Program-made: the position numbers and the translations under genes
The notes under the pieces: generated by a model
Databases searched by the model: none
What the model was told of the DNA's origin: nothing
What the model saw: the letters and a program-made list of their open reading frames with translations, nothing else
Shown: positions 4,508-51,147 of the stretch, one piece after another
Layout: each line of letters begins with the position of its first letter
How positions within the stretch are numbered: the first letter of the stretch is position 1
From: a bacterium UBP8_UBA817
GTDB lineage: Bacteria > Margulisbacteria > Marinamargulisbacteria > CAMDBA01
Reading direction: 5' to 3'
DNA length: 64,000 nucleotides
Assembly (NCBI GenBank): GCA_945888995.1
Contig: CAMDBA010000002.1
Span: 73,690-137,689, forward strand

Positions 4508-5899
4508 ATGTCTACACAAAAATCCGCGAAACTCTGGGGGGGCCGATTTAAGAAATCATTGGATGCGGATGCGGTTCGCTTGAGTTATTCCTATGATGTT
4601 GACAGCCGCTTGTATCGGTATGATATCCGGGTGAATCAGGCTCAGGCCAAAGCACTGTGGGAAGTGGGCATTTTAACGGAAAGCGAATTCGATCAACTTA
4701 CAGAATGTCTTGAAGATATCTTGGTGCGCTTTGAAAATTCGGACTCGGATTTGTTTGCGGGAGATGAAGATATTCACTCGTGTATCGAACGTCTGGTTAC
4801 CCAAAAAGTAGGGGATTTGGGTAAGAAACTACACACCGGAAAATCACGTAATGATCAGGTCATTTGTGATGTTCGTCTTTATCTGAAAGAAGAAATCGGA
4901 CATATTTCGACGCTCCTTCGGGCATTAATGCATGCAATATGGACGCTTGCGAGTCAGAACCAAACTTTAATTATGCCCGGCCTTACCCATTTTCAAACCG
5001 CTCAACCCGTCTTAGTCGCCCATCATCTTCTTGCCTATTTTGAGCAATTTTCCAGAGACCATGACCGATTTTCGGACGTCTTAAAGCGTGTAGACATTTG
5101 TCCTCTCGGCTCGGGTGCGCTGGCCGGTAATAACTATGGATTGGACCGGAATGTCGTGGCCAAACTTTTAGGATTTTCCACCGTTTCGCAAAATAGCATG
5201 GATGCCGTAGGCGATCGAGATTTCCTTCTGGAGTTTTTATCGCATGTTTCAATTACAATGATGCATTTGAGCCGCTTTGCTGAAGAGATGGTGATCTGGA
5301 GTTCTCCTCTGATAGGGTTTATTGAGATCGGAGATGAATTTACGACCGGCAGCTCAATTATGCCACAGAAAAAAAATCCGGATATCGCTGAATTAATCCG
5401 AGGTAAATCCGGCCGTGTCTTAGGTAATCTCGTCTCACTTCACCATATTTTGAAAGCCCTTCCGATGACATACAACCGTGATTTGCAGGAAGATAAAGAA
5501 GGCTTATTCGATAGCATTGATACCGTATCGATCAGTTTGAAGTGTTTTGCTAAGATGCTGGGTTCGATCACTTTTAATTCTCAAGCCCTGACAGCAGCCG
5601 TTAAAAAAGGATATACCCTGGCAACTGAATTGGCCGACTATTTGGCCAAAAAAGGGGTTCCCTTCAGGCAAGCTCATGAAATCACAGGTCAGGTCGTCTT
5701 GTACGCTGTGGATCAGAAAAAACAATTGGAAGAGCTGACTCTCGGGGAATTAACGGTATTTTCAGATGCCATTGATCAGGATATTAACCAGATATTTAAT
5801 TACGAGAAAAGCCTCGAACGAAAAGACGTTTTAGGCGGAACCGCGCCAAATCAGGTTCGCTATCAATTGCAAAAACTAAAGGAGCAGTATAAATGGTAG
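4508..5899 (+). CDS. argH: argininosuccinate lyase
   Basis: 463 aa; fumarate-lyase signature GSSIMPQKKNPD; starts 1 nt after argF stop. Confidence 0.9.
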   Translation: MSTQKSAKLWGGRFKKSLDADAVRLSYSYDVDSRLYRYDIRVNQAQAKALWEVGILTESEFDQLTECLEDILVRFENSDSDLFAGDEDIHSCIERLVTQKVGDLGKKLHTGKSRNDQVICDVRLYLKEEIGHISTLLRALMHAIWTLASQNQTLIMPGLTHFQTAQPVLVAHHLLAYFEQFSRDHDRFSDVLKRVDICPLGSGALAGNNYGLDRNVVAKLLGFSTVSQNSMDAVGDRDFLLEFLSHVSITMMHLSRFAEEMVIWSSPLIGFIEIGDEFTTGSSIMPQKKNPDIAELIRGKSGRVLGNLVSLHHILKALPMTYNRDLQEDKEGLFDSIDTVSISLKCFAKMLGSITFNSQALTAAVKKGYTLATELADYLAKKGVPFRQAHEITGQVVLYAVDQKKQLEELTLGELTVFSDAIDQDINQIFNYEKSLERKDVLGGTAPNQVRYQLQKLKEQYKW

Positions 5900-6349: not shown

Positions 6350-7855
6350 ATGATCTTTTCAATTAAAAAAGTGGATGTATTTAGTCAACAAACCGATGTT
6401 TTGGTAGCACCTGTATTTAAAAACGAAAGCCTTTTATCTTCCGATTTAAGAGTGCTGGATCGATTATTGGAAGGGAAGCTGTCGGAGCTTTTTGACGAAA
6501 AAACATTGACCGGAAAAGATAATGAAGTCGTGGTTATCCATGGATTTGGTGAATTAAAAGCCAAACGTCTTCTATTAGTCGGACTGGGCGAACGATCTGC
6601 TTTGACCTGTGAGAAATTACGTAAAGCAGCAGGTGAAATCGTGAGAAGAGCTAAAGGAGCAAAGGCAAAAAAAGTGGTCTGGTTATGGGATATCGGAACT
6701 CTTGATGCTGCAGATACTACGCAGGCCGTGGCCGAAGGCGCAGTCATGGGCGGATATACTTTTGACTGCTATAAAACCAAACCTGAAAAAAATGAAAAAC
6801 CCACCAAGATTAAAGAAATAGTATTAGCGGTACCTGATTCAGAACATATTTCTGCCATGGAATCGGCAGTTATAACCGGCCTGGTCATTGGGGAATCGGT
6901 TAACATCGCACGTGATTTAGCCAATATGCCGCCGAACGACTTAACCCCATCAGCGTTTGTAGATCTGGCCAAAAAATATCTGGATGGACAAAAATCGATT
7001 ATGATTGACGTTATTGATAAAAAGAAAGCAAAAGCTTTAGGAATGCACGCATTTTTAGGCGTAGGTCAGGGCACTGTCGAACCTTGTTATATGCTGGCGG
7101 TTTCCTATCATCCTATGAAAAATAAAAAGCCCATCGGGCTTGTGGGGAAAGGCGTCACATTTGATACCGGAGGTATTTCCATAAAGCCGTCAAAAGGAAT
7201 GGAAGAAATGAAAGGCGATATGAGTGGAGCAGCAGCAGTTCTGGGTACGGTGATCGCCTTGTCAAAGCTTAAAGTTCAGACCAATGTCTTAGCTGTAATG
7301 CCTTTGAGTGAGAATATGCCCTCCGGTTCTGCACAGCGTCCCGGTGATATCGTCGCTGCAATGAATGGGAAAACGATTGAGATTACCAACACCGATGCGG
7401 AAGGTAGACTGATTTTGGCCGATGCGCTATGTTATGCCGTTACTAAGGGGTGCTCTCAGTTAGTCGATATTGCGACTCTGACAGGTGCATGTCTGGTTGC
7501 CTTAGGAGATCAGGCAGCGGCAATACTCGGGTCTGATCAGGGCATGATTGATACCTTTCTAAAGGTTGGGGAGCGGACCGGCGAGCGTTTATGGCAATTG
7601 CCACTTTATGAAGAATATTTTGACTATATTAAATCGGATTCTGCGGATATGGTGAATTCATCCGAAAACCGGCTGGCAGGCACCGCCGTAGGTGCAATAT
7701 TCCTGAAGCAATTTGTCGGGGATACGCCGTGGGTGCACCTTGATATTGCCAGTATGATGCACTATTCCAAAGTATCCGGTTATACGGTCAAAGGGATGTC
7801 GGGTGTGGGGGTTCGGACCCTCGTTGGATATTGTCGCCAACAGTCTGGGCTTTAA
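6350..7855 (+). CDS. pepA: leucyl aminopeptidase (M17)
   Basis: 501 aa; NTDAEGRL signature and M17 catalytic core. Confidence 0.88.
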   Translation: MIFSIKKVDVFSQQTDVLVAPVFKNESLLSSDLRVLDRLLEGKLSELFDEKTLTGKDNEVVVIHGFGELKAKRLLLVGLGERSALTCEKLRKAAGEIVRRAKGAKAKKVVWLWDIGTLDAADTTQAVAEGAVMGGYTFDCYKTKPEKNEKPTKIKEIVLAVPDSEHISAMESAVITGLVIGESVNIARDLANMPPNDLTPSAFVDLAKKYLDGQKSIMIDVIDKKKAKALGMHAFLGVGQGTVEPCYMLAVSYHPMKNKKPIGLVGKGVTFDTGGISIKPSKGMEEMKGDMSGAAAVLGTVIALSKLKVQTNVLAVMPLSENMPSGSAQRPGDIVAAMNGKTIEITNTDAEGRLILADALCYAVTKGCSQLVDIATLTGACLVALGDQAAAILGSDQGMIDTFLKVGERTGERLWQLPLYEEYFDYIKSDSADMVNSSENRLAGTAVGAIFLKQFVGDTPWVHLDIASMMHYSKVSGYTVKGMSGVGVRTLVGYCRQQSGL

Positions 7856-9563
7856 ACCGGGTTTTACCCTTATGCTCGAATTTGAGCATCGGAACACCGG
7901 GCAGATATTCTTCCTGAGAAACAGCCGTGATACGCCGTAACGCATACAAAATGACGCCAATTTTTTTTGCTTGCTCGGCAATAATCCGGCTTACCCAAAC
8001 AAGTTTCGGGTCCAGATTGGCTTCCTGAGTGAGCTGTTGGGCGCCGAGAAGGATCGACGTGAGAGGTGAGTTAATCTCGTGATTGAGGGTAATGACGGTT
8101 TTAGTGACGGCGGCGAGTTTAAGCGTTTCTTCGATTTCTTTTACTTGTTGGGCAACCCGTTTTTCAAGAGTTTGGAGTAATTCTTTATTTTCCTGGTTGA
8201 GTTGTTGAAGGTGTTCAAACACCCGTACCCGTTCATACACGACCGTAATATGAGAGGCCAGTGTTTCGAGCAGCGTAATATCCTGTAGTGAATAGGCGTC
8301 CCCCGAATATTTTTTTTCTAGCGCCAGGAAGCAGAGTAGCTGGTTTTCCAAAATACCTGGAACAGCCAGTGAAATACGATTTTCTTTCAAATATTCTCTC
8401 AATGTACAATCGAATTCGGAGGATAGAATCACTTTCTTTTCGGAGAGTAAACGCGAAACCAATGGATCAGACTCATCCAACGTATCAGGCAGAGCGATAG
8501 ACGAACCGACATTTTTGCCCGCAAGATAGAAATTCTGAGATACAAAATGAGATCTCCGGTCTTCGACATAAAGGACAAGCGGCATCTCTAGCTCTTTTCT
8601 AAACAAGTCTAATAGGACATCGAGAAGATCCGCCAGGCTGACGCAGCCCGTTAAGCGGTGAGAGACTTTTTTTAAGACTTCCTGATAGTTATACCGGCCT
8701 TTCAAAAAGAGACTATCTGAGCTGGTTTGAATAACATATCGCACTTTTTGAAACGTTAAGATGATAACTGACGTATATAAAATCTGGAATAATAAAAATA
8801 GTGCGTCTGATCTGCGGCTCGAAAATTGATGGAAAATATATACCGACGAAAAGCTGATAAAGATATAAAAAGCGGCTGTTGTGGCCAATGCGACACTTCG
8901 GCTGATCATGATGGGGATTTCTACAAGCCGGTGCCGTGTAATAGCGATAAATGTGGTAATGACTAAAAACGATGTGAATAGCGGACTGAATTGATCAAAT
9001 TCCGTATATCCCACCATCGGCAAAATGATGCTTGCCGCAGCACATGAAAATCCTGACAAAATCGTGCCGGCTATAAAGTATTGAAGACGCATCGCATAAA
9101 TTCCCCGGTGCAATCTAATCTGTGCCATGGCTACTCCAACGATACCGGCAACGTAAGAAAGGAAATAAACCGCAAATATAGGACACCCGATCCCATAAGC
9201 TGTAGTAGAAAATGTCGGCGCGCTTTGAACAATGGCAGGTGTAACCGAAAGCCCGATCATCCAGATAGGGGGAATCCAAATGAGTCCTAATATCCACCCA
9301 TTGAGCCCGCTAAATTTTCTAGGATAAAAAAGTGCGAACATCAGAATGAATGGCGGAATAATACTTGCGATTACAAATGAAACTCTCGTCCAAAACAGGA
9401 TATTGGTAGAATTGTGGACCAGATAGACGGACGCAATCCACGCGGCAATTCCAAGCGCACCCAGAAAAAAAGAAATGTTGGCGGGATTGGTTCTGTGTTT
9501 ATAAAAAATAAGCCAACCAAGTAGACAATTGGCCGCGATTAAAAATAAATAGATATAGATCAT
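7788..9563 (-). CDS. multi-pass membrane sensor protein with GAF domain and histidine-kinase DHp/H-box but no HATPase_c domain
   Basis: 591 aa; ~8 predicted TM helices in first ~300 aa; central GAF-like region; C-terminal H-box LNHEINSPLTSI followed by only ~95 aa (two-helix DHp), no N/G1/F/G2 boxes; C-terminal 68 nt overlap the 3' end of pepA on the opposite strand. Confidence 0.6.
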   Translation of the reverse strand: MIYIYLFLIAANCLLGWLIFYKHRTNPANISFFLGALGIAAWIASVYLVHNSTNILFWTRVSFVIASIIPPFILMFALFYPRKFSGLNGWILGLIWIPPIWMIGLSVTPAIVQSAPTFSTTAYGIGCPIFAVYFLSYVAGIVGVAMAQIRLHRGIYAMRLQYFIAGTILSGFSCAAASIILPMVGYTEFDQFSPLFTSFLVITTFIAITRHRLVEIPIMISRSVALATTAAFYIFISFSSVYIFHQFSSRRSDALFLLFQILYTSVIILTFQKVRYVIQTSSDSLFLKGRYNYQEVLKKVSHRLTGCVSLADLLDVLLDLFRKELEMPLVLYVEDRRSHFVSQNFYLAGKNVGSSIALPDTLDESDPLVSRLLSEKKVILSSEFDCTLREYLKENRISLAVPGILENQLLCFLALEKKYSGDAYSLQDITLLETLASHITVVYERVRVFEHLQQLNQENKELLQTLEKRVAQQVKEIEETLKLAAVTKTVITLNHEINSPLTSILLGAQQLTQEANLDPKLVWVSRIIAEQAKKIGVILYALRRITAVSQEEYLPGVPMLKFEHKGKTRFKAQTVGDNIQRGSEPPHPTSL

Positions 9564-9754
9564 AAGTTATATTAAAGGGCCATAGTGAAAAATGAATATA
9601 TTGATACTATTATATCCTTTTTTTTCACAATTCGGATGGGTCATTTCATCGGTATAAAAAGGCCCGGTTTGCATCAAGAATGATCGATGTTTAAGGCGGA
9701 CTTATAAAGGGTAATTAGTTAAGAGCGATATCTTGTATAAAAGGTGGGGTGGGA

Positions 9755-10675
9755 ATGAATGTAATTAACTCAAGACAAGATTCTTCTCCGGATTTCTCAG
9801 ATTTTTTAAGCAGGCGGTTTCTATCTCAAGGGAATGGTGCCCAACCGACAACACCTTTAGTGGCGATGGCGGAAAAAATCGCAGCCCTGGAATCAGAATT
9901 GGCGGGCTATAAAAAAATGAAAGACGATGTCGTGAAGCAGTTAATCGAAATCCGTGAGAATAACCATGACATGAAAAATTATATGACACCTTTAAAGATT
10001 TTCCTGCAAATGGTATCAAAGGAAATTACAGACACTAAACTTCTTAAATTTATTGAGTCTCTTCGCTACGATACGCTGCCCAAAATAGAAGAAGTATATT
10101 TGAGTGTAGATAACAATGCGGCTGAGTTGGGCCAGACATCTAAAGTTTATACGAGGGTTTTAAATTTATCGGAAGAGTTAACACGGTTTTTAGAACATAT
10201 CGCCATTCAAAATCCAGGGATCACGATTGCCTCAGATATTCATTATACCGGGTTTATTCGAACCAGCACCCGGATTTTTTTTGATAAAGTATTGAAAAAT
10301 TGCATCATTAATTCCGTTCAGGCAATCCGTGAAAAACATATTGCGAACGGCAATGTCATAGTGGAATTACATGATGTGACGAGCTATCGGAATCGCTATA
10401 ACGATAAAGTTTGTTTCGATCAATTCGAAGAGTCCGATATTATGATCGTTTGCAGGGATAACGCTGGAGGTCTTCCTCAGCAACTGGAGCACCGATTTTT
10501 TGATATGGGATTTACGTATAATAAGCCGAGTGGGACAGGTGTGGGCACCGCTTCGGTCCGAACCTCGGTAGAGGAAAAGCTATTTGGCAAAATCGCACTT
10601 GAAAATAAAGAAGGTGCGGGCTTAGCCATTCATATGAAATTTTCAGGATCATTAGAAGATAAGAGCGCGTCATAA
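9755..10675 (+). CDS. soluble sensor histidine kinase (HisKA + HATPase_c)
   Basis: ORF begins with GTG at 9749; ATG at 9755 preceded by AAGGTGGGGTGGG RBS; coiled-coil N-terminus; H-box HDMKNYMTPL, N-box NCIINSVQAI, G1 DNAGGLP, F-box FFDMGFT, G2 GTGVGT. Confidence 0.75.
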   Translation: MNVINSRQDSSPDFSDFLSRRFLSQGNGAQPTTPLVAMAEKIAALESELAGYKKMKDDVVKQLIEIRENNHDMKNYMTPLKIFLQMVSKEITDTKLLKFIESLRYDTLPKIEEVYLSVDNNAAELGQTSKVYTRVLNLSEELTRFLEHIAIQNPGITIASDIHYTGFIRTSTRIFFDKVLKNCIINSVQAIREKHIANGNVIVELHDVTSYRNRYNDKVCFDQFEESDIMIVCRDNAGGLPQQLEHRFFDMGFTYNKPSGTGVGTASVRTSVEEKLFGKIALENKEGAGLAIHMKFSGSLEDKSAS

Positions 10676-10687
10676 AGGAGAATCGGT

Positions 10688-11923
10688 ATGTCTGTTGAAA
10701 CGATTGTGGTCATTGAAGAGGGCACGGCTATTGCGGATATGTTAGAAAAGGAACTGATGAAACCGCATCAGATTTTAACTTTTTTGGAAGCGAATGAGGC
10801 AACTTACCAAGCCATACAGGCCCGATATGATGATTTAAAAGAGTATGTGGCGCTTATCATAGTCCAGGAGACGGAATTGTTGGACGGAATCGCGGTTTTT
10901 CGTCAACTCTCTCAGAGATTGTATTTCCCGAATGTACTGATTGTGACTAATGACCGGGATCTGGAACGCAGTATCGTTGCTATGAAGGAAGGCTGTGTTG
11001 ATTACCTTATTGCACCTGGCATGGAGACACTCAAGGCTCATGTTGAAGATATCTGTAAAAAATCGATTCATAAGATATCGGATCACTATGACAAATTCGA
11101 AGTCCAAAACGAACTCGTATACAAACGAACTCTAACGCGTGAAGTAGAGCTTAAAACCTATATCGATGAAAACCGTGTGTTGACCCAGGAAGAACGCAGC
11201 GCTATTCGGTATGCCAGTGGTCCGGAAGTCGGCAAGACCTGGGAATCCGTTATTGATGACATCGAATTATCTTCAACCCGAAAACCGCATGTCCTAATTG
11301 TTGACGACGAAGAAATGCAGAGGGAAAGTCTGGCAGAATATTTATGCGATGACTATGAAACGGTAATGGTGGGCAGCTCAGAAGCCGCACTGGCCTATAT
11401 GGCGGAGCATCCGATTGATGTGGCGCTATTGGATATTCGGATGGAAGGAATGCCCGGAGACGAATTGCTTAGGCAGATCCGGCAGATTTCACCGTTGATA
11501 TCGGTTATTATGGTGACGGCTTATCCTGATACCGCTACGGCCGTTCAAACATTGGGAGATGGCGCGGTTGAATTTCTCAATAAGCAATCCTACACGGAAG
11601 AGGCTTTATTGGCGGCGGTGAAACGTGCTGCTGAAATGAAATATTATCGGGATCATTATATTTGTCAGGATTTGCTGTTCGAACGCCGGCTGAAATTGTG
11701 GAAAAAATATTACATGGGAGGGTGTCATAAAGCGCAGATCCTACTCAGGGATTTTTATGTGTTTTTTCCTGAATTTTGGGTTGAATCTGTTGATGAGCAA
11801 CTTCCGATAAAGCCGGATTATGTTTTAGGTGACTTGGATGAATTCGTTGAAAAGATGAGAACGGTTTATGAAAAAGAAGAAGCCAGAGTAGAAGAAAAAG
11901 TGATGCAGGAGAATGCCCTTTAA
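10688..11923 (+). CDS. response regulator with degenerate N-terminal receiver, canonical receiver and uncharacterised C-terminal domain
   Basis: 411 aa; starts 13 nt after the kinase stop; second domain has DD (LIVDDEE), phospho-Asp (ALLDIRM), Thr (MVTAY), Lys (FLNKQ); first REC-like domain lacks the phospho-acceptor Asp and the conserved Lys; last ~95 aa have no recognisable HTH. Confidence 0.7.
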   Translation: MSVETIVVIEEGTAIADMLEKELMKPHQILTFLEANEATYQAIQARYDDLKEYVALIIVQETELLDGIAVFRQLSQRLYFPNVLIVTNDRDLERSIVAMKEGCVDYLIAPGMETLKAHVEDICKKSIHKISDHYDKFEVQNELVYKRTLTREVELKTYIDENRVLTQEERSAIRYASGPEVGKTWESVIDDIELSSTRKPHVLIVDDEEMQRESLAEYLCDDYETVMVGSSEAALAYMAEHPIDVALLDIRMEGMPGDELLRQIRQISPLISVIMVTAYPDTATAVQTLGDGAVEFLNKQSYTEEALLAAVKRAAEMKYYRDHYICQDLLFERRLKLWKKYYMGGCHKAQILLRDFYVFFPEFWVESVDEQLPIKPDYVLGDLDEFVEKMRTVYEKEEARVEEKVMQENAL

Positions 11924-12063: not shown

Positions 12064-15000
12064 ATGGATGCGCAATACCATATTACTGAAATATTATTTG
12101 AAAATAATCAGGTCAGCCTATGTAGAGGGATAATGTCGGGTGCTCCTTGCTTAATTAAGCGGCTTAAACCGCTGGAAGATTCCCGCAGAGAAGTGTCTCA
12201 GCTTGCGTACGAATACCGAATTTCTAAGTCGTTTGAATCGGACTACTGCTTGGATCCTGTTACAGTAGAGATGTTCGATCACACACCGGCCATTGTTTAT
12301 TCCTATCATGAAGCGGATTTATTAAGTTGTTTAATGGATAAGCGGATATTTTCCGTGTCTGAAGTGCTGAGCCTCGGAATAGAAATCCTGAAAGCACTCA
12401 CGGAAATTCACGGAAATTTTGTAACGCACCGTCTGCTCAGCCCTCATTCGATCTTTTGGAATGGGAATACCAAAAAAGTAAAGATAATTAATTTCGGATC
12501 TGCGGTTTCGTTTTTACAGGATTCGATTTCGTATAAAGCTGCATTATTGGCCGATGATCGGGATCGAGCTTATATCGCGCCTGAATGTTTAAAAGAAGGG
12601 TCGTCCTATGACTTTCGTGCTGACTTTTTTTCGCTGGGAATTCTTTTGTATGAATTATTTTTAGGGCATCCGCCGGATTATCATAGCGCTATGTCGTCTT
12701 TATATGACAGCAAGCCCACCATCCCCCGTGCCATATCGGACATCGTTCAAAAGTTATGCTCATTTAATATCCAGGATCGGTATAAAAGTGCGCAAGGCGC
12801 TTTATATGATTTGGAAAAATGTGCGGAATTGCTTCAACCGACCGGTTCTATTGCCTATTTTTACCCGGGGCAGGAAGATGTGCCGACGTTTCTAATGTTT
12901 CCGGAAAATGTATACGGACGCGAAGCGGAAGATAAATTCTTAAGTTTGATCATTAAATCTATTTGTTATGGGCAGCCGAAATGTTGTCTGGTATCAGGGT
13001 ATTCGGGGATCGGAAAAACGACGCTGATTATGCAGGCTTTGCAATCGGAAACCCTCCAATATTGCCATGCCTTGAAAGGAAAGGGCGAACAAACTGGAGA
13101 GCGTCGGCCATATGGGTTATTCAGACGTGCGTTTACTGAATTTGTATTTAAAATTTTACAAGCGGGTCAAACCTCCGTGTCCTATTGGCGAGATCATATC
13201 CTAAAAGCAGTCGGGGAACTTAATGGCCAGGTAATTGTGAATGTCATACCCGAGTTTGAATTTATTCTCGGATCACAGCCTGCTTTATATACCATCACCT
13301 CTCAAGAGGCTCAAAACCGTCTGGAGGAAACCTTTTGCTGTTTATTTCATGCGCTTTCAAATGTAGAGCATCCATGTCTTTTTTTTGCGGATGATTTGCA
13401 TTGGGCGGATGAAGAGTCGTTACGCCTGTTAAGCGTGATCGTTAATCAAAGAATGCCCTATTTTGGCCTGATCGGCACCTATCGAAGTAATGAAATTTCG
13501 ATGGATAACCCTCTTAATACTTGGCAAGATAACAGTCTGATTCCGATTGAGACGATCGTCCTGCTACCTCTGCATTTACATGATGTTAAATGCTATATGG
13601 AAGAATTATTAAATTGCACTTCCGATCAGATCGATGTCTTTTCATTTATGGTGTACGAAAAGACAAAAGGAAATCCGTTTTTTATGAAGCAGTTTTTGCG
13701 ATCGCTATATGATCAGAAGCTGCTTTATTTTGATATCAAAACCCAGAGCTGGTTATGGGACCAATCCGCGATCAGTAAAATTACCGTATCGGAAAATGTG
13801 GCCGATATGCTAGAAGAACAGCTCAATTATCTTTCTGAACCAACCAAGTCGCTGCTTATGATGGCCGCTTGCTTAGGTACAATGTTTGATATCAAAACTT
13901 TAAGTAATATTTGCTACCGTCCTTTTATTCAATTATCGTCTGAAATATGGGAAGCCTGTCAGAAAGGCCTTCTTATTCCGCTCAACGACATTGATATTTT
14001 AGATATCGATATTCACCATGTCGATACGACAAAGTGGTATCGCTTTGCCCACGATAAGATACAAGGAGTGGCCTACTCGCTTATTCCAGCGGATGAAAAG
14101 CCGGAACTTCACCTTAAAATTGGCCGGAATTTGAAAAAATTCTATGTTGAAAATCAATCGGACGAATGCCTGTTTGCAGCCGTTTATAACCTAAATTTAG
14201 CGACCCATCTTATACCGGATGATCGGGAGAAATATGAGCTGGCCCGTCTTAATTTCATGGCCGGCGAAAAATCAAAAGAAGAGTTAGGATTTAAATCAGC
14301 CAAAGATTATTTTTTGACTGCCACGGGTCTTTTAAGGGCAACATATTGGAATACGGAGTTTGAATTCTTAATGTCGGTATGGCTTAATTATGCGGAGACA
14401 TTAGCAGTGTGTAATGATTTTAAAGGGGCCGAGCGCACTTACCGAAAACTACTCGACTATGCCAAAGAGCCTCTCGATAAAGTGCGAATATATATCAAAA
14501 TGGTAGTGCTCTATACGGCGTCTATCCAATATCCTCTGGCCATTGAAAGCGGATTAGACGGCTTGGCGTTACTGGGTTTGACGGTTCCCAAATATTGCAG
14601 GAAATGGCTTTTAATTGTCGAAGTATTAAAGTTTCAGATTTATCATAGGCGAACCGATGTTCATGAATTGATTCACCGGCCGATTTTTAAAGATAAGTCT
14701 TCGATCTTATTAATCGATATGATGAATGCGCTAGCGGTTCCGATATATTTTAGCAATCAAATCCTGGGCCAAATATTATTGTTACGGGTATTGAATTATT
14801 CATTGCGCCGGAATTGCGTCACAACGGCGTCATTTTTGTATCTTGCGGTAGGTATCGTGATCAATCATATTTTGCAGAAACCTTGGTGGGGCTATCAATT
14901 TGCAAATTTAGCGATTGATCTTAACGAAAAATATCATTTGGTCCAACAAAAATGCAAAACTCTTGAATTATTAGGCACGTTTTTTATGCATTGGGTAAAG

Positions 15001-15864
15001 CCTGCGTACGAAGCCTTGGAGGTTTTGGAACGTGCTTATTCAGCAGGTCTTGAAACGGGCGACTATTATTTTGCAGGTCTTGCTGCGTCTAATTTAATGG
15101 GAATCTCAATGATTTGCGGGATTCATCTGGAAACCATTTTAAAGATGGGCCACCGCGCGGATGAGGTGTTTGTGAAACAATCCTTGTCGGATGTGACTCG
15201 CAAGGTAGATTTACAAAAAGATCTGATTGAAGCCTTGATGACGAGTCAGGAAAAAACACTCGCGATTTTTTGTAATGGATATATTTTAAACGTAATAAAC
15301 CGCACAGGGAATCAAACCGCGATGGCGTATTATTATTCACTTAAACAAATGATCTTTTATCTTTTTGATCATCCCGATGCTCTCGAAGCGGTGGATCATT
15401 CCCAGGAATATCATATTTATTCCGCAGGCTTATACTATTACCCTGAGCATCGTTTCTTTCAAACACTTATTTTAATTCGGCATTACCGAAAGGCCACATG
15501 GTTTAAGAAAGTCCAGTTTCTTAAAATTATTCGGCGTAATATCGCTCAGCTTCAACGGTGGGCAAAGCATTCACCTATTAATTTTCGGCATAAAGGGCTA
15601 ATTTTGCAGGCTGAATTAATGAGGCTCCAAGACAAAAAAACAGAAGCTGAAGGATTTTATAAGCAAGCATTATCCGACTTTACTGGGGATTACTTTGCGC
15701 ATAATAAAGCCATTGCCTCAGAATGCTATGGCCAGTTTTGTCTGGAAAATGGAAAGCTAGAGCAAGCTTCCCTATATATTAAGCAATCCAGATGTCTCTA
15801 TTATCTCTGGGGTGCCACTGCCAAAGTCGAAGAAATGGACAAACGGTACCCCGGTTTTTTATAA
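12064..15864 (+). CDS. STAND-type NTPase with N-terminal Ser/Thr pseudokinase domain, AAA_16 ATPase and C-terminal TPR-like repeats (PknK/MalT-like architecture)
   Basis: 1266 aa; kinase fold present (VAIK-like CLIKRL, APE, DFFSLG subdomain IX) but HRD->HRL and DFG->NFG, Gly-loop degenerate; Walker A GYSGIGKTT, Walker B LFFADDLHWADEES; long helical/TPR-like C-terminal half. Confidence 0.7.
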   Translation: MDAQYHITEILFENNQVSLCRGIMSGAPCLIKRLKPLEDSRREVSQLAYEYRISKSFESDYCLDPVTVEMFDHTPAIVYSYHEADLLSCLMDKRIFSVSEVLSLGIEILKALTEIHGNFVTHRLLSPHSIFWNGNTKKVKIINFGSAVSFLQDSISYKAALLADDRDRAYIAPECLKEGSSYDFRADFFSLGILLYELFLGHPPDYHSAMSSLYDSKPTIPRAISDIVQKLCSFNIQDRYKSAQGALYDLEKCAELLQPTGSIAYFYPGQEDVPTFLMFPENVYGREAEDKFLSLIIKSICYGQPKCCLVSGYSGIGKTTLIMQALQSETLQYCHALKGKGEQTGERRPYGLFRRAFTEFVFKILQAGQTSVSYWRDHILKAVGELNGQVIVNVIPEFEFILGSQPALYTITSQEAQNRLEETFCCLFHALSNVEHPCLFFADDLHWADEESLRLLSVIVNQRMPYFGLIGTYRSNEISMDNPLNTWQDNSLIPIETIVLLPLHLHDVKCYMEELLNCTSDQIDVFSFMVYEKTKGNPFFMKQFLRSLYDQKLLYFDIKTQSWLWDQSAISKITVSENVADMLEEQLNYLSEPTKSLLMMAACLGTMFDIKTLSNICYRPFIQLSSEIWEACQKGLLIPLNDIDILDIDIHHVDTTKWYRFAHDKIQGVAYSLIPADEKPELHLKIGRNLKKFYVENQSDECLFAAVYNLNLATHLIPDDREKYELARLNFMAGEKSKEELGFKSAKDYFLTATGLLRATYWNTEFEFLMSVWLNYAETLAVCNDFKGAERTYRKLLDYAKEPLDKVRIYIKMVVLYTASIQYPLAIESGLDGLALLGLTVPKYCRKWLLIVEVLKFQIYHRRTDVHELIHRPIFKDKSSILLIDMMNALAVPIYFSNQILGQILLLRVLNYSLRRNCVTTASFLYLAVGIVINHILQKPWWGYQFANLAIDLNEKYHLVQQKCKTLELLGTFFMHWVKPAYEALEVLERAYSAGLETGDYYFAGLAASNLMGISMICGIHLETILKMGHRADEVFVKQSLSDVTRKVDLQKDLIEALMTSQEKTLAIFCNGYILNVINRTGNQTAMAYYYSLKQMIFYLFDHPDALEAVDHSQEYHIYSAGLYYYPEHRFFQTLILIRHYRKATWFKKVQFLKIIRRNIAQLQRWAKHSPINFRHKGLILQAELMRLQDKKTEAEGFYKQALSDFTGDYFAHNKAIASECYGQFCLENGKLEQASLYIKQSRCLYYLWGATAKVEEMDKRYPGFL

Positions 15865-15872
15865 GAATTAGT

Positions 15873-16589
15873 CTAGGAATGTTCGCCGGTTAAGACGAGT
15901 TCCGAAACGTGTGTTGAAACTTCTTTATTAGAATCCAATGTTAAAACCGTGTAGCGGTTAGACCAGACCGACCCTGTGATTTGAGCTGAAATATTAGGGA
16001 ATTGGTTTCTCAGGAAGCTGGATGAAAGCGATTTTAAACCCTTTGTAAATTCATGGACACTTGATTTAGGATCGATGTCCAGAACCATTGTAATTTCAGT
16101 ACCACTGACTTGCAGGTGATAAAGGGCATAAGTTAATTCTGAAATCGTTTCTTCAATTAATTTTTGAAGCGCATCTCTGACCGGCTCATCTGCCAAGATC
16201 GATTTTTCTGATTTTGTTTTCCAAGAGATTAAGTAGGTGCATTTATAAACGACTTCGTCTTTTTCATAAACGCCTGCAGGAACTGCGAATGAACTTGCCT
16301 GGAAGGTAGGTGTTCCGTTTTCCTGATGCAGCGCGTCATAGAAAATAAGATCCGGTTTGATACGCCCGAAAAACGCGGCTGCAATAAATTGCTTTTTTTC
16401 ATCTTCGGTCAGGCTGAGCGTTTCAGCGAGTTTTTGACAAATTGGAAAAGTAGGCGGGGTATAGCCTAATTCGAGTTTTCGGATATAACCGTCAGATTTT
16501 TGTATAGCTTCGGCTAAGTCAACTTTATACAAATCTCTATCTAATCTAAATTTTCTTAGCAAATCGGCAAATGGAGGTGGCTTTATCAT
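15873..16589 (-). CDS. XRE-family helix-turn-helix protein fused to uncharacterised C-terminal domain
   Basis: ORF extends to 16670, but AAAGGAAA RBS precedes the ATG at 16589 (MIKPPPFADLLRKFRLDRDLYKVDLAEAIQKSDGYIRKLELG = HTH_3/Cro-C1 type); ~170-aa C-terminal region with no recognisable motifs. Confidence 0.6.
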   Translation of the reverse strand: MIKPPPFADLLRKFRLDRDLYKVDLAEAIQKSDGYIRKLELGYTPPTFPICQKLAETLSLTEDEKKQFIAAAFFGRIKPDLIFYDALHQENGTPTFQASSFAVPAGVYEKDEVVYKCTYLISWKTKSEKSILADEPVRDALQKLIEETISELTYALYHLQVSGTEITMVLDIDPKSSVHEFTKGLKSLSSSFLRNQFPNISAQITGSVWSNRYTVLTLDSNKEVSTHVSELVLTGEHS

Positions 16590-16706
16590 AATAATTTCCT
16601 TTTCATTAACGGGGTCTTTGATATTACTACTTCGACTCATGCCAGCACGACAGTAAATATTTACTACCATTTTTGGTATGGTTTTTCAACTAGGAAAAAT
16701 AAACGC

Positions 16707-23080: not shown

Positions 23081-25153
23081 TTAAGGTTGTTTGAACAACG
23101 TCGGAAACAGAGGCTTGGGAGAAGCATACATTAGCATGCTCTCCCAAGATTTCCGGTTGAGCTGAGAATAAGTAGTGCGGTTTAGCGGATAAAATGGGAT
23201 GAATCCACCTCTCGCTACCGTATAGGTGCCCCGTTTTTGTCCGACCAATATCCATGCTTCCTGAACAGGCCCTGTTGCGCCTTGCAATAGAGCGTAGGGG
23301 GACTTATAAAGTGTCGCGATAGTCGTAGTCGGTCGATTTAAATAACCGGTTTTAGACGCAGATTCCAAAAAAAGTGCCATGTGATCTTGTTCATCGTGCG
23401 TCATCATGGTGCCTTCGAGTTCTTTTTTAGAAACCGACTCAAGATATCTGGCATAGGCATATAATTCCTGGAGACGCCAGTTGACCGGAAGATTTAGAAT
23501 GTAGCGATCTTTAAGGCCTTGGCGAAAACTCATGACAATATCGGCTAAACGGGCATAAGCCAACGGCTGAGGTTCAACATAAAATGTTGCGCCCTGGAAT
23601 GTCAGAGGGGTATGCACTGTAACCGAGTCTGCAGAAAGACTGTCGGACAAAAGAGGGATCATACCGGAAAAGAACGTATTAAGTTTAAGTTGGCCCCAAG
23701 CATGGCTCTGCATAAAAGGGGGGTAGGCTGCATTTTTTGGAGATCCGAGTGTCTTTAATGCATAGGCCCATCCTAGATCTAGCTGCTGTGTCCATGTCGT
23801 TGACGGGAGCTGTGAGACAAGTGAGTGAAGCCGGGTCTGTATTTGCTTATAATGAGGAAAAGAAGGTGCGGTAGGGGATGTGTACGTGCCCAGCACAGCC
23901 GATAAGTCGGTTATCGAGGGTGAGAGCCGTCTTTGACCTGCTGAATTCTTGCTGACATTCGGGAAAACTAATTTGTCCAATAGGGCCTGACTGACAGAGT
24001 AATCAGGAGAAATAAATCGGAAATATCGGTTTTTCCGGACGCCATTATTCGAAAAGCCGAATAATGAGTCAGATTTATAAGACAAAAGGCCTTTTTGAAA
24101 TGCTTTGAATTTCTCGGCGTCTTCGGTTAGTTTTTGGAGTGTAAGCTCATTTTGATAAAGAAAATCGGCCATGCCTTTTATTTGGTAATAGGTGGGGTCG
24201 TATGTTCTTCCTTTAATAAATTGCCAAGGTTCGGCAACTTGACGCCAGTAGGTTTGAACGGCCGGTTTTTTGAGTGCCATCGCCATCAATAATATAGAGC
24301 GTACTTCATCTTCCTGGGTGCTTCGGAAACGGATTTGGGAGTACCAGGTCATGGCCCGGTAATATTGTCTCAGGCCGGCTGAAGCTGCGTAAGATTCCGG
24401 GATTTGATAGAGAGTGTAATTTTGCTTGGGGTAGGGAAGAGAGGGTTTTTGCCGGGTTAATCGTTGCAGTGCGTTTTGTCTCGGACGGATGCCCATGACG
24501 GGTGATTTCGCTATACCCTTTGCGGATTGGATAAGATGAAGCTCATATTGGACTTCTTTACGAACAATTTGAGGAATTGGAACCGTGGGGTCTAAGAGTT
24601 GTGTGGCGACCGAAAAGAATGCGACGTTGCGTTTTGCCGCACTCTTGTAGGGGGTGTCTTTTAGATCGTAATAATATTCCAGAGATGAAAATAACATCGC
24701 AACACTTAAACTTTTAAGCTTAGGAATTAATAAATCGGTTGAGAAGTCCCGAATAATATCGTTCATCATTTGGCCATAAAGGTGAAAGATAAAATCCGTA
24801 CTGATAAAAGAAGGGGTAGATTGAGATCGGCTAGCGGAAAAAAACTCATGATAGGTCGAATAAGAAGTGGGCCGTATGATAAATCCTTGTGCTAGGAGTG
24901 CCTTTTTTTCATCGCGAGACAAAGGCAGCTTTGATAGGGCCTTTCTGGCGTCATTTGTATAGTGGGGTGCGGCATAAAGATCTAGCGGATCCGGCCTAGA
25001 AGGCATCCAGTCACTGAATGCAGGTACGGCATAGGTTTTAAAGGGAAGAACCGGCCGTGATATCGTCGTCTTTGCTTTATATAGAAAGAAGCCCCCCGTT
25101 AAACTAATCGCTAAGAGTGCCAGACAGGTAAGAAGAAGAGGTTTTTTTTTCAT
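23081..25153 (-). CDS. secreted/membrane-anchored protein of unknown function (690 aa)
   Basis: N-terminal signal peptide/anchor MKKKPLLLTCLALLAISLTGGFFLY; no motifs I can assign; stop 3 nt from the convergent leuA stop. Confidence 0.5.
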   Translation of the reverse strand: MKKKPLLLTCLALLAISLTGGFFLYKAKTTISRPVLPFKTYAVPAFSDWMPSRPDPLDLYAAPHYTNDARKALSKLPLSRDEKKALLAQGFIIRPTSYSTYHEFFSASRSQSTPSFISTDFIFHLYGQMMNDIIRDFSTDLLIPKLKSLSVAMLFSSLEYYYDLKDTPYKSAAKRNVAFFSVATQLLDPTVPIPQIVRKEVQYELHLIQSAKGIAKSPVMGIRPRQNALQRLTRQKPSLPYPKQNYTLYQIPESYAASAGLRQYYRAMTWYSQIRFRSTQEDEVRSILLMAMALKKPAVQTYWRQVAEPWQFIKGRTYDPTYYQIKGMADFLYQNELTLQKLTEDAEKFKAFQKGLLSYKSDSLFGFSNNGVRKNRYFRFISPDYSVSQALLDKLVFPNVSKNSAGQRRLSPSITDLSAVLGTYTSPTAPSFPHYKQIQTRLHSLVSQLPSTTWTQQLDLGWAYALKTLGSPKNAAYPPFMQSHAWGQLKLNTFFSGMIPLLSDSLSADSVTVHTPLTFQGATFYVEPQPLAYARLADIVMSFRQGLKDRYILNLPVNWRLQELYAYARYLESVSKKELEGTMMTHDEQDHMALFLESASKTGYLNRPTTTIATLYKSPYALLQGATGPVQEAWILVGQKRGTYTVARGGFIPFYPLNRTTYSQLNRKSWESMLMYASPKPLFPTLFKQP

Positions 25154-25311: not shown

Positions 25312-25388
25312 GGCGGCGTAGCTCAGGTGGTTAGAGCACACGGTTCATACCCGTGGTGTCACTGGTTCGACTCCAGTCGCCGCTACCA
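25312..25388 (+). tRNA. tRNA-Met (anticodon CAT; could also be tRNA-Ile2 or the initiator)
   Basis: 77 nt cloverleaf: acceptor GGCGGCG, D-arm GCTC/GAGC, anticodon stem CACGG/CCGTG with loop TTCATAC, T-arm ACTGG-TTCGACT-CCAGT, encoded ACCA. Confidence 0.85.
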
Positions 25389-25430
25389 TATTATTGTTTA
25401 TCACGTAATTTTGATAAGAAAGAGGTCATT

Positions 25431-51060: not shown

Positions 51061-51147
51061 TGCCGAGGTGGTGGAATTGGTAGACACACCAGCTTGAGGG
51101 GCTGGCGGGGGCAACTCTGTGCAGGTTCAAGTCCTGTCCTCGGTACC
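51061..51147 (+). tRNA. tRNA-Leu (anticodon GAG)
   Basis: 87-nt type-II tRNA: acceptor GCCGAGG...CCTCGGT-A-CCA, anticodon stem CCAGC/GCTGG with loop TTGAGGG, long variable arm, T-arm GGTTCAAGTCC. Confidence 0.85.

What the first reader, a model, noticed from the sequence alone, without database searches (positions are those of the whole stretch)
7788..9563. Membrane GAF sensor carrying a histidine-kinase H-box/DHp but no ATPase domain; 68-nt tail-to-tail overlap with pepA
The 591-aa minus-strand protein has ~8 TM helices, a GAF-like domain and a textbook H-box (LNHEINSPLTSI) with its second DHp helix. It then terminates: none of the N, G1, F or G2 boxes of HATPase_c are present, and no frame in the downstream DNA (antisense to pepA) encodes them. 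The last 22 codons are encoded inside the 3' end of pepA on the other strand, an unusually long convergent overlap. This is either a kinase truncated by a rearrangement or sequencing error, or a genuine DHp-only phosphoacceptor that is phosphorylated in trans. The divergently encoded soluble kinase at 9755 would be the obvious trans partner.
Basis: seen in the sequence. Interest (0 to 1): 0.7.

Follow-up and report, generated by a model that had tools for sequence, protein, structure and literature searches.

The report
Kinase-less membrane sensor, conserved family
This is an intact, selected gene for a membrane sensor that keeps the phosphorylatable histidine helix of a bacterial histidine kinase but never had its own ATPase domain; it belongs to a widespread, unstudied family of such "kinase-less" sensors, and its long overlap with pepA is an incidental tail.

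Summary
ORF 7788-9563(-) encodes 591 aa: nine hydrophobic segments (Pfam HisKA_7TM plus two), a weak GAF domain, a HisKA-type DHp with His495, no HATPase_c, and a 68-nt overlap with pepA.

It is not a truncation or an assembly error. Seven strain variants all stop at the same codon. dN/dS is 0.32, similar to the neighbouring signalling genes.

The protein belongs to a family found at 53 loci in GTDB species-representative genomes whose record titles name about 13 bacterial lineages. Members combine a variable sensor (7TM-GAF, GAF, PAS or REC) with a DHp carrying the H-box LNHEINNPL. About 58 residues later comes Y-x-x-G-x-M-I-D-L, then a stop. None of the 53 has a CA domain. None of 104 canonical kinases has the tail motif. 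AlphaFold2 predicts the motif as a beta-hairpin.

The 22 codons inside pepA are an outlier extension (29 aa against a family median of 8). They are predicted disordered, and both strain substitutions there are silent in pepA.

Mechanism is inferred. His and the kinase-specific Glu are essentially invariant, so His495 is most likely phosphorylated by another protein and acts on the adjacent response regulator. The adjacent sensor-less kinase is a plausible donor but is not conserved across the family. The architecture class is already noted in censuses.

The parts
7788..9563 (-). Whole gene: 591-aa CA-less membrane sensor (7TM+2 TM, GAF, DHp, beta-hairpin, tail)
   Evidence: ORF. Pfam. Seven variants of identical length. 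dN/dS 0.32.
8739..9563 (-). Membrane region, residues 1-275: nine hydrophobic segments. Pfam HisKA_7TM covers residues 6-216.
   Evidence: (E 2e-11) and the hydropathy scan.
8241..8639 (-). GAF-like domain, residues 309-441
   Evidence: GAF_3 E 9.5e-5 and GAF_2 E 3.3e-4, both below gathering. Weak match to the GAF sensor 3o5y. This region aligns with the GAF region of 7TM-GAF kinases.
7935..8195 (-). DHp helical hairpin, residues 457-543 (helix 457-513, loop, helix 519-543)
   Evidence: AF2 model, pLDDT 80-96. Foldseek best hits are the DHp domains of ERS1, ZraS, GacS and CpxA. The family profile hits LvrB, ZraS and FixL DHp.
8055..8090 (-). H-box TLNHEINSPLTS, residues 492-503. His495 codon is at 8079-8081. 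Glu496 is H+1 and Ser499 is H+4.
   Evidence: Sequence. Family column counts: His 55/57, Glu 57/57, Asn at H+4 53/57 with the window the only Ser.
7872..7931 (-). Family-specific C-terminal beta-hairpin, residues 545-564 (TAVSQEEYLPGVPMLKFEHK), carrying the Y-x-x-G-x-M-[ILV]-[DK]-[LIVF] motif
   Evidence: AF2 strands at 545-554 and 557-564, pLDDT about 83. Tyr 55/57 and Met 54/57 across the family. Motif absent from 104 canonical transmitters. 0 of 18 positions vary among strains.
7788..7871 (-). Lineage-specific disordered tail, residues 565-591 plus stop. Coordinates 7788-7855 lie antisense inside the pepA 3' end.
   Evidence: pLDDT 53-64. Tail is 29 aa against a family median of 8 and maximum of 18. 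The two strain substitutions (Q573R, R581Q) fall on pepA third codon positions, and the PepA C-terminus is invariant.
6350..7855 (+). pepA (M17 leucyl aminopeptidase), the convergent neighbour that constrains the overlapped DNA
   Evidence: Peptidase_M17 E 3e-117. dN/dS 0.02.
9564..9754 (.). Divergent intergenic region between the sensor gene and the HK306-RR411-STK gene string
   Evidence: The promoter-like scan found no more sites than in shuffled sequence.
9755..10675 (+). HK306: sensor-less soluble histidine kinase. Features in 306-aa numbering: candidate His71 in HDMKNYMTPL, N box at 182-191, G1 box DNAGG at 235-239, F box at 248, G2 box GTGVG at 260. Candidate phosphodonor or partner.
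   Evidence: HATPase_c E 6e-8. Residues 71-300 align with canonical DHp+CA transmitters, His on His. Box positions.
10688..11923 (+). RR411: pseudo-receiver (Gln60 at the Asp position), then a true receiver (Asp249), then an unassigned C-terminal domain of about 95 aa. Candidate cognate regulator.
   Evidence: Response_reg E 5e-28, two stretches. Local REC HMM. Residue positions.

Best explanation
Shown. The gene is intact and under selection. It encodes a membrane sensor of nine TM segments and a GAF domain. Its only output module is a HisKA-type DHp four-helix-bundle subunit followed by a short conserved beta-hairpin. It has no ATP-binding (CA) domain and cannot autophosphorylate. It is a divergent member of a widespread CA-less family defined by four features: the H-box [VI][ST]L[NQ]HEINNPL; a Tyr 57-62 residues after the His; the motif Y-x-x-G-x-M-I-D-L; and a stop a few residues later.

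Inferred. The His and the adjacent Glu are essentially invariant in this family. In HisKA kinases that Glu is needed for His phosphorylation but not for phosphatase activity. His495 is therefore most likely phosphorylated by another protein. The donor could be the CA domain of a separate kinase acting in trans, here most plausibly the divergently transcribed sensor-less kinase HK306. It could also be back-transfer from a phosphorylated receiver. The 7TM-GAF input would then gate phosphoryl flow to or from the adjacent response regulator RR411 (Asp249). The conserved hairpin probably caps the bundle or docks the foreign partner.

The last 22 codons, which lie antisense inside pepA, are a disordered, weakly constrained read-through extension with no role of their own.
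For: Real and selected:
- Seven variants all have 591 aa and the same stop.
- dN/dS is 0.32 overall and 0.18 for DHp plus hairpin. Neighbours are HK306 0.36, RR411 0.27 and pepA 0.02.

Family:
- P0052, P0060 and P0155 align end to end and stop 10-16 aa after EYMPGVxMID.
- At 53 loci in GTDB species-representative genomes, the family gene ends 69-87 aa after the His.
- 0 of 53 have a CA domain.
- 22 of 22 database hits carry only HisKA, with or without REC.
- The tail motif is in 0 of 104 canonical transmitters and in 41 of 57 family modules.
- The closest relative P0258 has HEINSPLT and EEYLPGITMFKLDNKNE*, followed by a STAS gene.

Chemistry retained:
- His 55/57, Glu 57/57, Asn at H+4 53/57, Pro 54/57.
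- In CrdS and HK853 the Glu is required only for autophosphorylation, and the H371A and E372A mutants keep phosphatase activity (PMC3510030).
- In the aligned modules the only two copies lacking the His (L006, L007) also lack the hairpin motif, as does the middle copy in L004, where the His is replaced by Arg.

A kinase nearby: 20 of 53 loci have a CA-bearing kinase within 4.5 kb, mostly on the same strand. Here HK306 and RR411 are adjacent.

Hairpin and disordered tail: AF2.

Incidental tail.
Against: - No biochemical test was possible, so phosphorylation of His495 is inferred only from conservation.
- HK306 has its own plausible H-D-x-x-N His, so it could be a self-sufficient kinase.
- HK306's G1 box is DNAGG, with the first Gly replaced by Ala.
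- HK306 has no homologue next to any other family member.
- 33 of 53 family loci have no kinase within 4.5 kb.
- The DHp sequences of the sensor and of HK306 look unrelated by eye. No alignment was run, so heterodimerisation is not supported.
- The window protein is divergent within the family: Ser at H+4 and MLKF instead of MIDL.
- The hairpin rests on a monomer AF2 model built from a 22-sequence alignment.
Confidence: 0.5

Rival explanations
1. Dedicated signal-gated phosphatase. The DHp never carries a phosphoryl group. It only binds RR411~P and catalyses its dephosphorylation, opposing the constitutive soluble kinase HK306.
For: - The isolated EnvZ DHp has phosphatase activity (Zhu et al. 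2000, cited as ref 16 in PMC3510030).
- Galperin et al. proposed this for 'HisKA, no HATPase' proteins (PMC5847659).
- The family conserves Asn at H+4, the residue required exclusively for phosphatase activity (53/57).
- A sensor-less kinase plus a kinase-less sensor fits an antagonistic pair.
Against: - His and Glu are invariant in the family, yet CrdS H371A and E372A keep near-wild-type phosphatase activity. A pure phosphatase would not need them.
- In the window protein and in its closest relative, H+4 is Ser and not Asn/Thr. In CrdS the N375A, N375Q and N375D mutants are phosphatase-dead and N375T is only partly active.
Confidence: 0.2
2. Non-catalytic regulator or pseudokinase, like RocA, RetS or DivL. 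The protein signals by binding a true kinase (HK306 or one encoded elsewhere) through its DHp or hairpin and modulating it. No chemistry occurs at His495.
For: - RocA is a membrane pseudokinase that acts through CovS. Its His246 is dispensable, and a truncated form lacking the CA domain complements a rocA mutant when overexpressed (PMC7028121).
- Margulisiibacteriota loci hold tandem paralogues with and without CA. Some CA-less copies have lost the His altogether, so regulatory non-catalytic copies do exist.
Against: - H, E, N and P are nearly invariant across 57 modules from many phyla, which is unexpected for a purely structural role.
- The His-less copies also lost the hairpin and look like decaying paralogues.
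- The DHp sequences of the sensor and HK306 are dissimilar by eye (no alignment run).
Confidence: 0.2
3. Recently truncated kinase (pseudogene) or an assembly or frameshift artefact. The CA domain was lost by a deletion that fused the gene to the pepA 3' end.
For: - Most 7TM-GAF relatives are kinases of about 700 aa with a CA domain.
- The tail is abnormally long and runs into pepA.
Against: - The stop is identical in seven variants from independent assemblies.
- dN/dS is 0.32, and the hairpin is invariant among strains.
- The family-specific hairpin motif, absent from 104 canonical kinases, is present.
- The closest relative and distant full-length homologues are CA-less in other genomic contexts.
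- Without the overlapped codons the tail would be 8 aa, which is the family median.
Confidence: 0.03

Closest known systems
'HisKA, no HATPase' non-enzymatic HK-like proteins (Galperin et al. 2018, PMC5847659; called 'possible incomplete histidine kinase' or phosphotransfer protein in P2CS, PMC2716373)
   Same: Sensor domains (PAS, GAF, REC) followed by a HisKA dimerisation domain with a conserved His and no HATPase. These proteins are annotated generically and have not been studied experimentally. Phosphoacceptor, phosphotransfer or phosphatase roles have been proposed.
   Different: That class was described by architecture, mainly in Archaeoglobi and Methanomicrobia. The family here is bacterial (about 13 lineages by record titles) and has a specific H-box (LNHEINNPL) and a conserved C-terminal Y-x-x-G-x-M-I-D-L hairpin that those census papers do not mention. 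No Pfam or NCBIfam model is specific for it.
Split or trans-acting kinases: EnvZ domain A plus domain B reconstitution in vitro; M. tuberculosis Rv0600c/Rv0601c-TcrA; split CheA Hik36/Hik43 (PMC7656254)
   Same: The phosphoacceptor His and the ATP-binding domain sit on separate polypeptides, encoded next to each other or cooperating. This is the mechanism proposed here for sensor591 and HK306.
   Different: In those cases the two halves are complementary. Here HK306 keeps its own DHp-like His. The Hik36 acceptor is an HPt domain, not a DHp. The Rv0600c/Rv0601c and EnvZ details come from my own knowledge. The held review says only that the system has two sensor kinases and one regulator.
DHp-type histidine phosphotransferases Spo0B and ChpT
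   Same: These have a four-helix-bundle DHp-like His carrier that cannot autophosphorylate and shuttles phosphoryl groups between receiver domains. The REC-DHp members of the family (16/53) would suit such a relay.
   Different: Spo0B and ChpT retain a degenerate CA-like alpha/beta domain and lack sensor domains (my own knowledge). This family has only a roughly 20-residue hairpin after the DHp and carries sensor inputs.
Histidine pseudokinases RocA, RetS and DivL
   Same: HK-like membrane or multidomain proteins that do not autophosphorylate and act through a bona fide kinase (RocA-CovS, PMC7028121).
   Different: Those keep a (degenerate) CA domain, and their His is dispensable or replaced. 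Here the CA is entirely absent and the His and Glu are invariant.

Membership tests
Canonical HisKA-family sensor histidine kinase | DHp with H-box His in H-E/D-x-x-T/N-P | tested here: met
   H495-E-I-N-S-P. HisKA hit at E 6e-5 on the isolated module. AF2 and Foldseek give a DHp fold. H+4 is Ser rather than Thr/Asn.
Canonical HisKA-family sensor histidine kinase | C-terminal HATPase_c (CA) domain with N, G1, F and G2 boxes | tested here: not met
   No HATPase_c at E<=1. Only 48 residues follow DHp helix 2. Downstream frames are pepA antisense with stops. A local CA HMM finds none in 53 family genes.
CA-less 'LNHEINNPL + C-terminal hairpin' family (defined here) | H-box [VI][ST]L[NQ]HEINNPL | tested here: met
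   The window has ITLNHEINSPL, one substitution (N to S at H+4).
CA-less 'LNHEINNPL + C-terminal hairpin' family (defined here) | Conserved Tyr 57-62 residues after the His, then G and M-[ILV]-[DK]-[LIVF] | tested here: met
   His495 to Tyr553 is 58 residues. The motif is YLPGVPMLKF, with K instead of the usual D, as in the closest relative P0258 (MFKL).
CA-less 'LNHEINNPL + C-terminal hairpin' family (defined here) | Protein ends shortly after the motif (0-18 aa), with no further domain | tested here: inconclusive
   There is no further domain, but the tail is 29 aa and is the longest outlier. Excluding the 22 codons inside pepA it is 8 aa, which is the family median.
'HisKA, no HATPase' HK-like proteins (Galperin 2018; P2CS) | N-terminal sensor domain(s), HisKA with conserved His, no recognisable HATPase | tested here: met
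Split kinase pair (acceptor and ATPase on two polypeptides) | Partner protein supplies the CA domain and phosphorylates the acceptor His in trans | not testable with these tools
   HK306 is adjacent and has HATPase_c, but it has its own His and is not conserved next to other family members. An in vitro phosphorylation assay is needed.
HPt / Spo0B / ChpT phosphotransferases | HPt (PF01627) four-helix monomer, or DHp plus a degenerate CA-like domain | tested here: not met
   No Hpt or Spo0B-type Pfam hit. Nothing but a hairpin and a disordered tail follows the DHp.

The most novel reading that the evidence does not exclude
The CA-less 'LNHEINNPL + hairpin' proteins would be a distinct, widespread class of two-component element: sensor- or receiver-gated DHp modules. 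They would borrow a catalytic domain from, or exchange phosphoryl groups with, other kinases and regulators. The conserved C-terminal beta-hairpin would be the docking element that replaces the tethered CA domain. Examples include the copies embedded in flagellar flhF-flhG-fliA clusters and the tandem arrays next to a CA-bearing paralogue.
Probability: 0.25. Interest if true: 0.75.

Novelty: new member of a known kind. Interest (0 to 1): 0.5.

Why it matters
Census papers have noted 'HisKA without HATPase' proteins for 20 years and usually dismissed them as incomplete or misannotated kinases. None has been characterised.

This work shows that one such gene is selected. It also shows that it belongs to a coherent family spanning many phyla, with invariant phosphoryl-chemistry residues and a private C-terminal hairpin. 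That turns a vague category into a concrete, testable object. The question becomes whether a DHp can work as a sensor-gated phosphoacceptor or relay without its own ATPase, and what the hairpin binds.

The result also warns annotators that these proteins are not kinases. And it shows that a long convergent gene overlap can be a neutral by-product.

Tried and rejected
- Protein search with the 4-sequence alignment A2 returned essentially the same hits as the single query and missed P0052, P0060 and P0155. It added nothing.
- A metagenome-contig scan with the window+P0258 alignment matched 194 pattern stretches, but none encoded a relative. No closer orthologues were found. The next-best hit in 1.84 billion representatives is 30% identical.
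- The idea that the tail hairpin is the remnant of the canonical DHp-CA junction (first CA strand; my recollection of EnvZ 'MEMADLN') is not supported. hhalign aligns family and canonical profiles only up to the Tyr, and 0 of 104 canonical transmitters carry the motif.
- AF2 of HK306 from a single sequence gave mean pLDDT 47.6 and is unusable.
- Foldseek E-values for the DHp model are weak (>=0.02). They identify only the generic DHp fold.
- Taxonomy of the window could not be established. Cluster look-ups carry no names, and the GTDB representative scan did not return the species. The best full-length relatives are Margulisiibacteriota.
- The promoter and terminator scan of 7400-10000 found no more sites than shuffles.
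- My first regex count of H-box residues picked up false matches. It was replaced by alignment-column counts.
- An inversion that split an ancestral kinase into sensor591 and HK306 was considered. It is rejected on geometry: HK306 lies upstream of the sensor's 5' end and has its own DHp.
Full report
**1. Observation**

The ORF 7788..9563 on the minus strand encodes 591 aa. pepA (Peptidase_M17, E 3e-117) runs 6350..7855 on the plus strand, so the two genes overlap tail to tail by 68 nt.

Pfam finds the following in the 591-aa protein:
- HisKA_7TM at residues 6-216 (E 2e-11).
- Sub-threshold GAF_3/GAF_2 at 309-441.
- HisKA at 492-541 (E 0.0046; 6e-5 on the isolated module).
- No HATPase_c even at E<=1.

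NCBIfam aligns only DHp segments of CreC, NtrB and AtoS. A hydropathy scan shows nine hydrophobic segments: the seven of HisKA_7TM plus two more. That places the GAF-DHp part in the cytoplasm. All three frames downstream are pepA antisense with stops, and only 48 residues follow the second DHp helix, too few for any ATPase fold.

**2. Not an artefact or a pseudogene**

- The exact protein cluster holds seven full-length variants (97-99% identical) from independent NCBI, ENA and Logan assemblies. All are 591 aa with the same stop.
- Gene order is the same in a second strain (L058).
- Against that strain the sensor has 17.5 synonymous and 18.5 non-synonymous differences, giving dN/dS 0.32. The DHp plus hairpin gives 0.18. 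For comparison HK306 is 0.36, RR411 is 0.27 and pepA is 0.02.

**3. Relatives**

An exhaustive phmmer search of 1.84 billion representatives found nothing closer than 30% identity. Most 7TM-GAF relatives are kinases of about 700 aa.

Three representatives behave differently. P0052, P0060 and P0155 (612-614 aa) align end to end with the query. They also stop just after the DHp and share a C-terminal motif: [RK]EYMPGV[ED]MID in them, EEYLPGVPMLKF in the window.

A scan of GTDB species-representative genomes using this motif and the H-box returned 55 loci. In 53 of them the gene ends 69-87 residues after the His. The N-terminal parts differ: 7TM-GAF, GAF, GAF-PAS, REC, REC-PAS or REC-REC.

Record titles name the following lineages: Margulisiibacteriota, Latescibacterota, Cloacimonadota, Zixibacteria, LCP-89, Calditrichota, Nitrospinota, Nitrospirae, Gemmatimonadota, Kiritimatiellae, Bdellovibrionota, Alphaproteobacteria and Clostridia.

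Further support for a CA-less family:
- A local CA-domain HMM hits 0 of the 53 family genes.
- A profile search of the big protein database returned 22 hits. All carry HisKA, with or without Response_reg, and none has HATPase_c. NCBI names them 'histidine kinase dimerization/phospho-acceptor domain-containing protein'.

Column counts over 57 modules:

| Position | Residue | Count |
|---|---|---|
| H | His | 55/57 |
| H+1 | Glu | 57/57 |
| H+2 | Ile | 57/57 |
| H+3 | Asn | 56/57 |
| H+4 | Asn | 53/57 |
| H+5 | Pro | 54/57 |
| tail | Tyr | 55/57 |
| tail | Met | 54/57 |
| tail | Asp | 41/57 |

The tail motif is absent from 104 canonical transmitters taken from the same searches and present in 41 of 57 family modules. 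It is therefore family-specific and not a generic DHp-CA junction. hhalign also aligns family and canonical profiles only as far as the Tyr.

The closest relative of the window module is P0258 (NCBI MFC1617564.1; 34% identity over 160 aa, E 4e-31). It has the same HEINSPLT H-box and ends EEYLPGITMFKLDNKNE*. It is followed by a STAS gene and a P-type ATPase, not by pepA.

**4. Structure**

AF2 was run on residues 455-591 with a 22-sequence family alignment (mean pLDDT 79.6). It gives two long helices (457-513 and 519-543), then a beta-hairpin (545-554 and 557-564, pLDDT about 83) with P-G at the turn. Residues 565-591 have low confidence (pLDDT 53-64). Foldseek and the PDB profile search identify the helices as a DHp, matching ERS1, ZraS, GacS, CpxA, LvrB and FixL. 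None of these matches extends over the hairpin.

**5. The overlap**

After the M-[ILV]-[DK]-[LIVF] position, family tails are 0-18 aa long with a median of 8. The window tail is 29 aa. Removing the 22 codons that lie inside pepA leaves 8.

Among strains the hairpin has 0 of 18 variable positions. The tail has 2 of 27, Q573R and R581Q. Both substitutions fall on pepA third codon positions, and the PepA C-terminus is invariant.

The overlap is therefore best read as an ORF that runs on to the first stop in pepA antisense. Selection there acts on pepA.

**6. Genomic context**

In the window, the sensor is transcribed divergently from a string of three genes.
- HK306 has HATPase_c and no sensor domain. 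Its residues 71-300 align with canonical DHp+CA transmitters, with His71 on the H-box His. Its H-box is HDMKNYMTPL and its G1 box is DNAGG.
- RR411 has a pseudo-receiver with Gln60 at the Asp position, a true receiver with Asp249, and an unassigned C-terminal domain.
- A 1266-aa Ser/Thr kinase-AAA_16-TPR protein follows.

Across the family, 20 of 53 loci have a CA-bearing kinase within 4.5 kb, mostly on the same strand. 23 of 53 have a separate receiver gene nearby. 16 of 53 family proteins carry their own N-terminal REC.

Recurrent contexts:
- Margulisiibacteriota: serC-like, serA-like, an NtrC-type regulator, one to three CA-less 7TM-GAF copies, then in most of these loci a CA-bearing 7TM-GAF paralogue.
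- Zixibacteria, LCP-89 and Calditrichota: flhF-flhG-fliA-HDOD followed by the family gene.
- Latescibacterota: kinase, family gene, CheZ, CheY.

HK306 itself has no homologue in any of these neighbourhoods.

In the Margulisiibacteriota arrays, the copies whose His is replaced by Arg, Gln or Lys have also lost the hairpin motif.

**7. Mechanism (inferred)**

Without a CA domain the protein cannot autophosphorylate. Mutagenesis of HisKA kinases established two points (PMC3510030):
- The acidic residue after the His is required only for His phosphorylation.
- The Thr/Asn at H+4 is required only for phosphatase activity. The CrdS H371A and E372A mutants keep near-wild-type phosphatase.

A family that keeps His and Glu invariant therefore most likely still uses a phosphorylated His. 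It would receive the phosphoryl group from a CA domain in trans or by back-transfer from a receiver. It would also be able to dephosphorylate receivers through Asn.

In the window lineage H+4 is Ser, which weakens the pure-phosphatase reading for this particular protein.

I therefore favour a sensor-gated phosphoacceptor or relay acting on RR411, with HK306 as the most plausible donor. My confidence is about 0.5 for the whole statement and about 0.9 for 'genuine, conserved, CA-less family member'. Rivals are a dedicated phosphatase (0.2), a non-catalytic RocA/RetS-like regulator (0.2) and a pseudogene or artefact (0.03).

**8. Comparison with what is known**

The architecture class is already on record:
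- 'Nonenzymatic HK-like proteins' and 'HisKA, no HATPase' in archaea, with no member studied (PMC5847659).
- 'Phosphotransfer proteins' and 'incomplete HK' in P2CS (PMC2716373).

Functional analogues are split kinases, DHp-type phosphotransferases (Spo0B, ChpT) and pseudokinases (RocA, PMC7028121). Each differs in a defining feature; see the membership table.

No Pfam or NCBIfam model is specific for the H-box-plus-hairpin family. My literature searches found no description of it. Those searches cover only open-access text.

**9. Verdict**

- The truncation or error reading is wrong.
- The 'genuine DHp-only' reading is right.
- The trans-phosphorylation partner is plausible but unproven.
- The overlap is incidental.

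The gene is a new, divergent member of a known but uncharacterised kind. The family-level signature found here is the more interesting product.

Noticed in passing
window 12064-15864 (+): A 1266-aa Ser/Thr protein kinase fused to AAA_16 (STAND-like NTPase) and TPR repeats lies directly downstream of HK306-RR411 on the same strand. This suggests a mixed His-Asp / Ser-Thr signalling gene string.
   Followed up: partly
window 10688-11923 (+): RR411 has an N-terminal pseudo-receiver (Gln60 at the phospho-Asp position), a complete receiver (Asp249) and a C-terminal domain of about 95 aa with no Pfam match.
   Followed up: partly
window 9755-10675 (+): HK306 has an atypical H-box (HDMKNYMTPL, no Pro at H+5) that Pfam HisKA models miss. 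Its G1 box is DNAGG, with the first Gly replaced by Ala. Its ATP-binding competence is uncertain.
   Followed up: partly
window 15873-16670 (-): A 265-aa ORF combines an HTH_3 domain with an IS200-like Y1 transposase domain. It sits just after the signalling gene string.
   Followed up: no
L004 6983-14534; also L002, L006, L007, L009 (Margulisiibacteriota and unnamed MAGs): Tandem arrays of one to three CA-less 7TM-GAF-DHp genes are followed by a CA-bearing paralogue and preceded by an NtrC-type regulator. Copies in which the His is replaced by Arg, Gln or Lys have also lost the C-terminal hairpin motif.
   Followed up: partly
L013, L017-L019, L022, L025-L028 (Zixibacteria, LCP-89, Calditrichota and unnamed MAGs): The GAF-PAS-DHp-hairpin family gene sits in a conserved flagellar-type cluster: FlhF-like SRP GTPase, FlhG/MinD-like ATPase, FliA-like sigma factor, HDOD protein, family gene, DUF6115/DUF2802 protein. 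No kinase is nearby.
   Followed up: partly
L010 2917-7953 and L011 (Latescibacterota): The gene order is kinase, CA-less GAF-DHp family gene, CheZ-like phosphatase, CheY-like receiver. A dedicated phosphatase is thus already present next to the family gene.
   Followed up: no
L044 3622-7701: The family gene is preceded by two pairs of small and large genes, one of them with a CA-type ATPase of 140 aa, and followed by a receiver. The closest window relative, P0258, is also followed by a STAS protein (L057 650-1207). This hints at a link to partner-switching modules.
   Followed up: no
window 5893-5899: The ndk start overlaps the argH stop by 7 nt. The upstream genes form an arginine-biosynthesis string (AA_kinase, OTCase, argH) in the source contig.
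   Followed up: no
window 25353-28172 (+), 23081-25153 (-), 25312-25385, 51062-51145: A 939-aa UPF0182 protein, a 690-aa DUF3160 protein and two tRNA genes are present. The rest of the window is housekeeping (leuA-like, transketolase, rho, uvrC, acyl-CoA ligase-like). Taxonomy could not be assigned.
   Followed up: no
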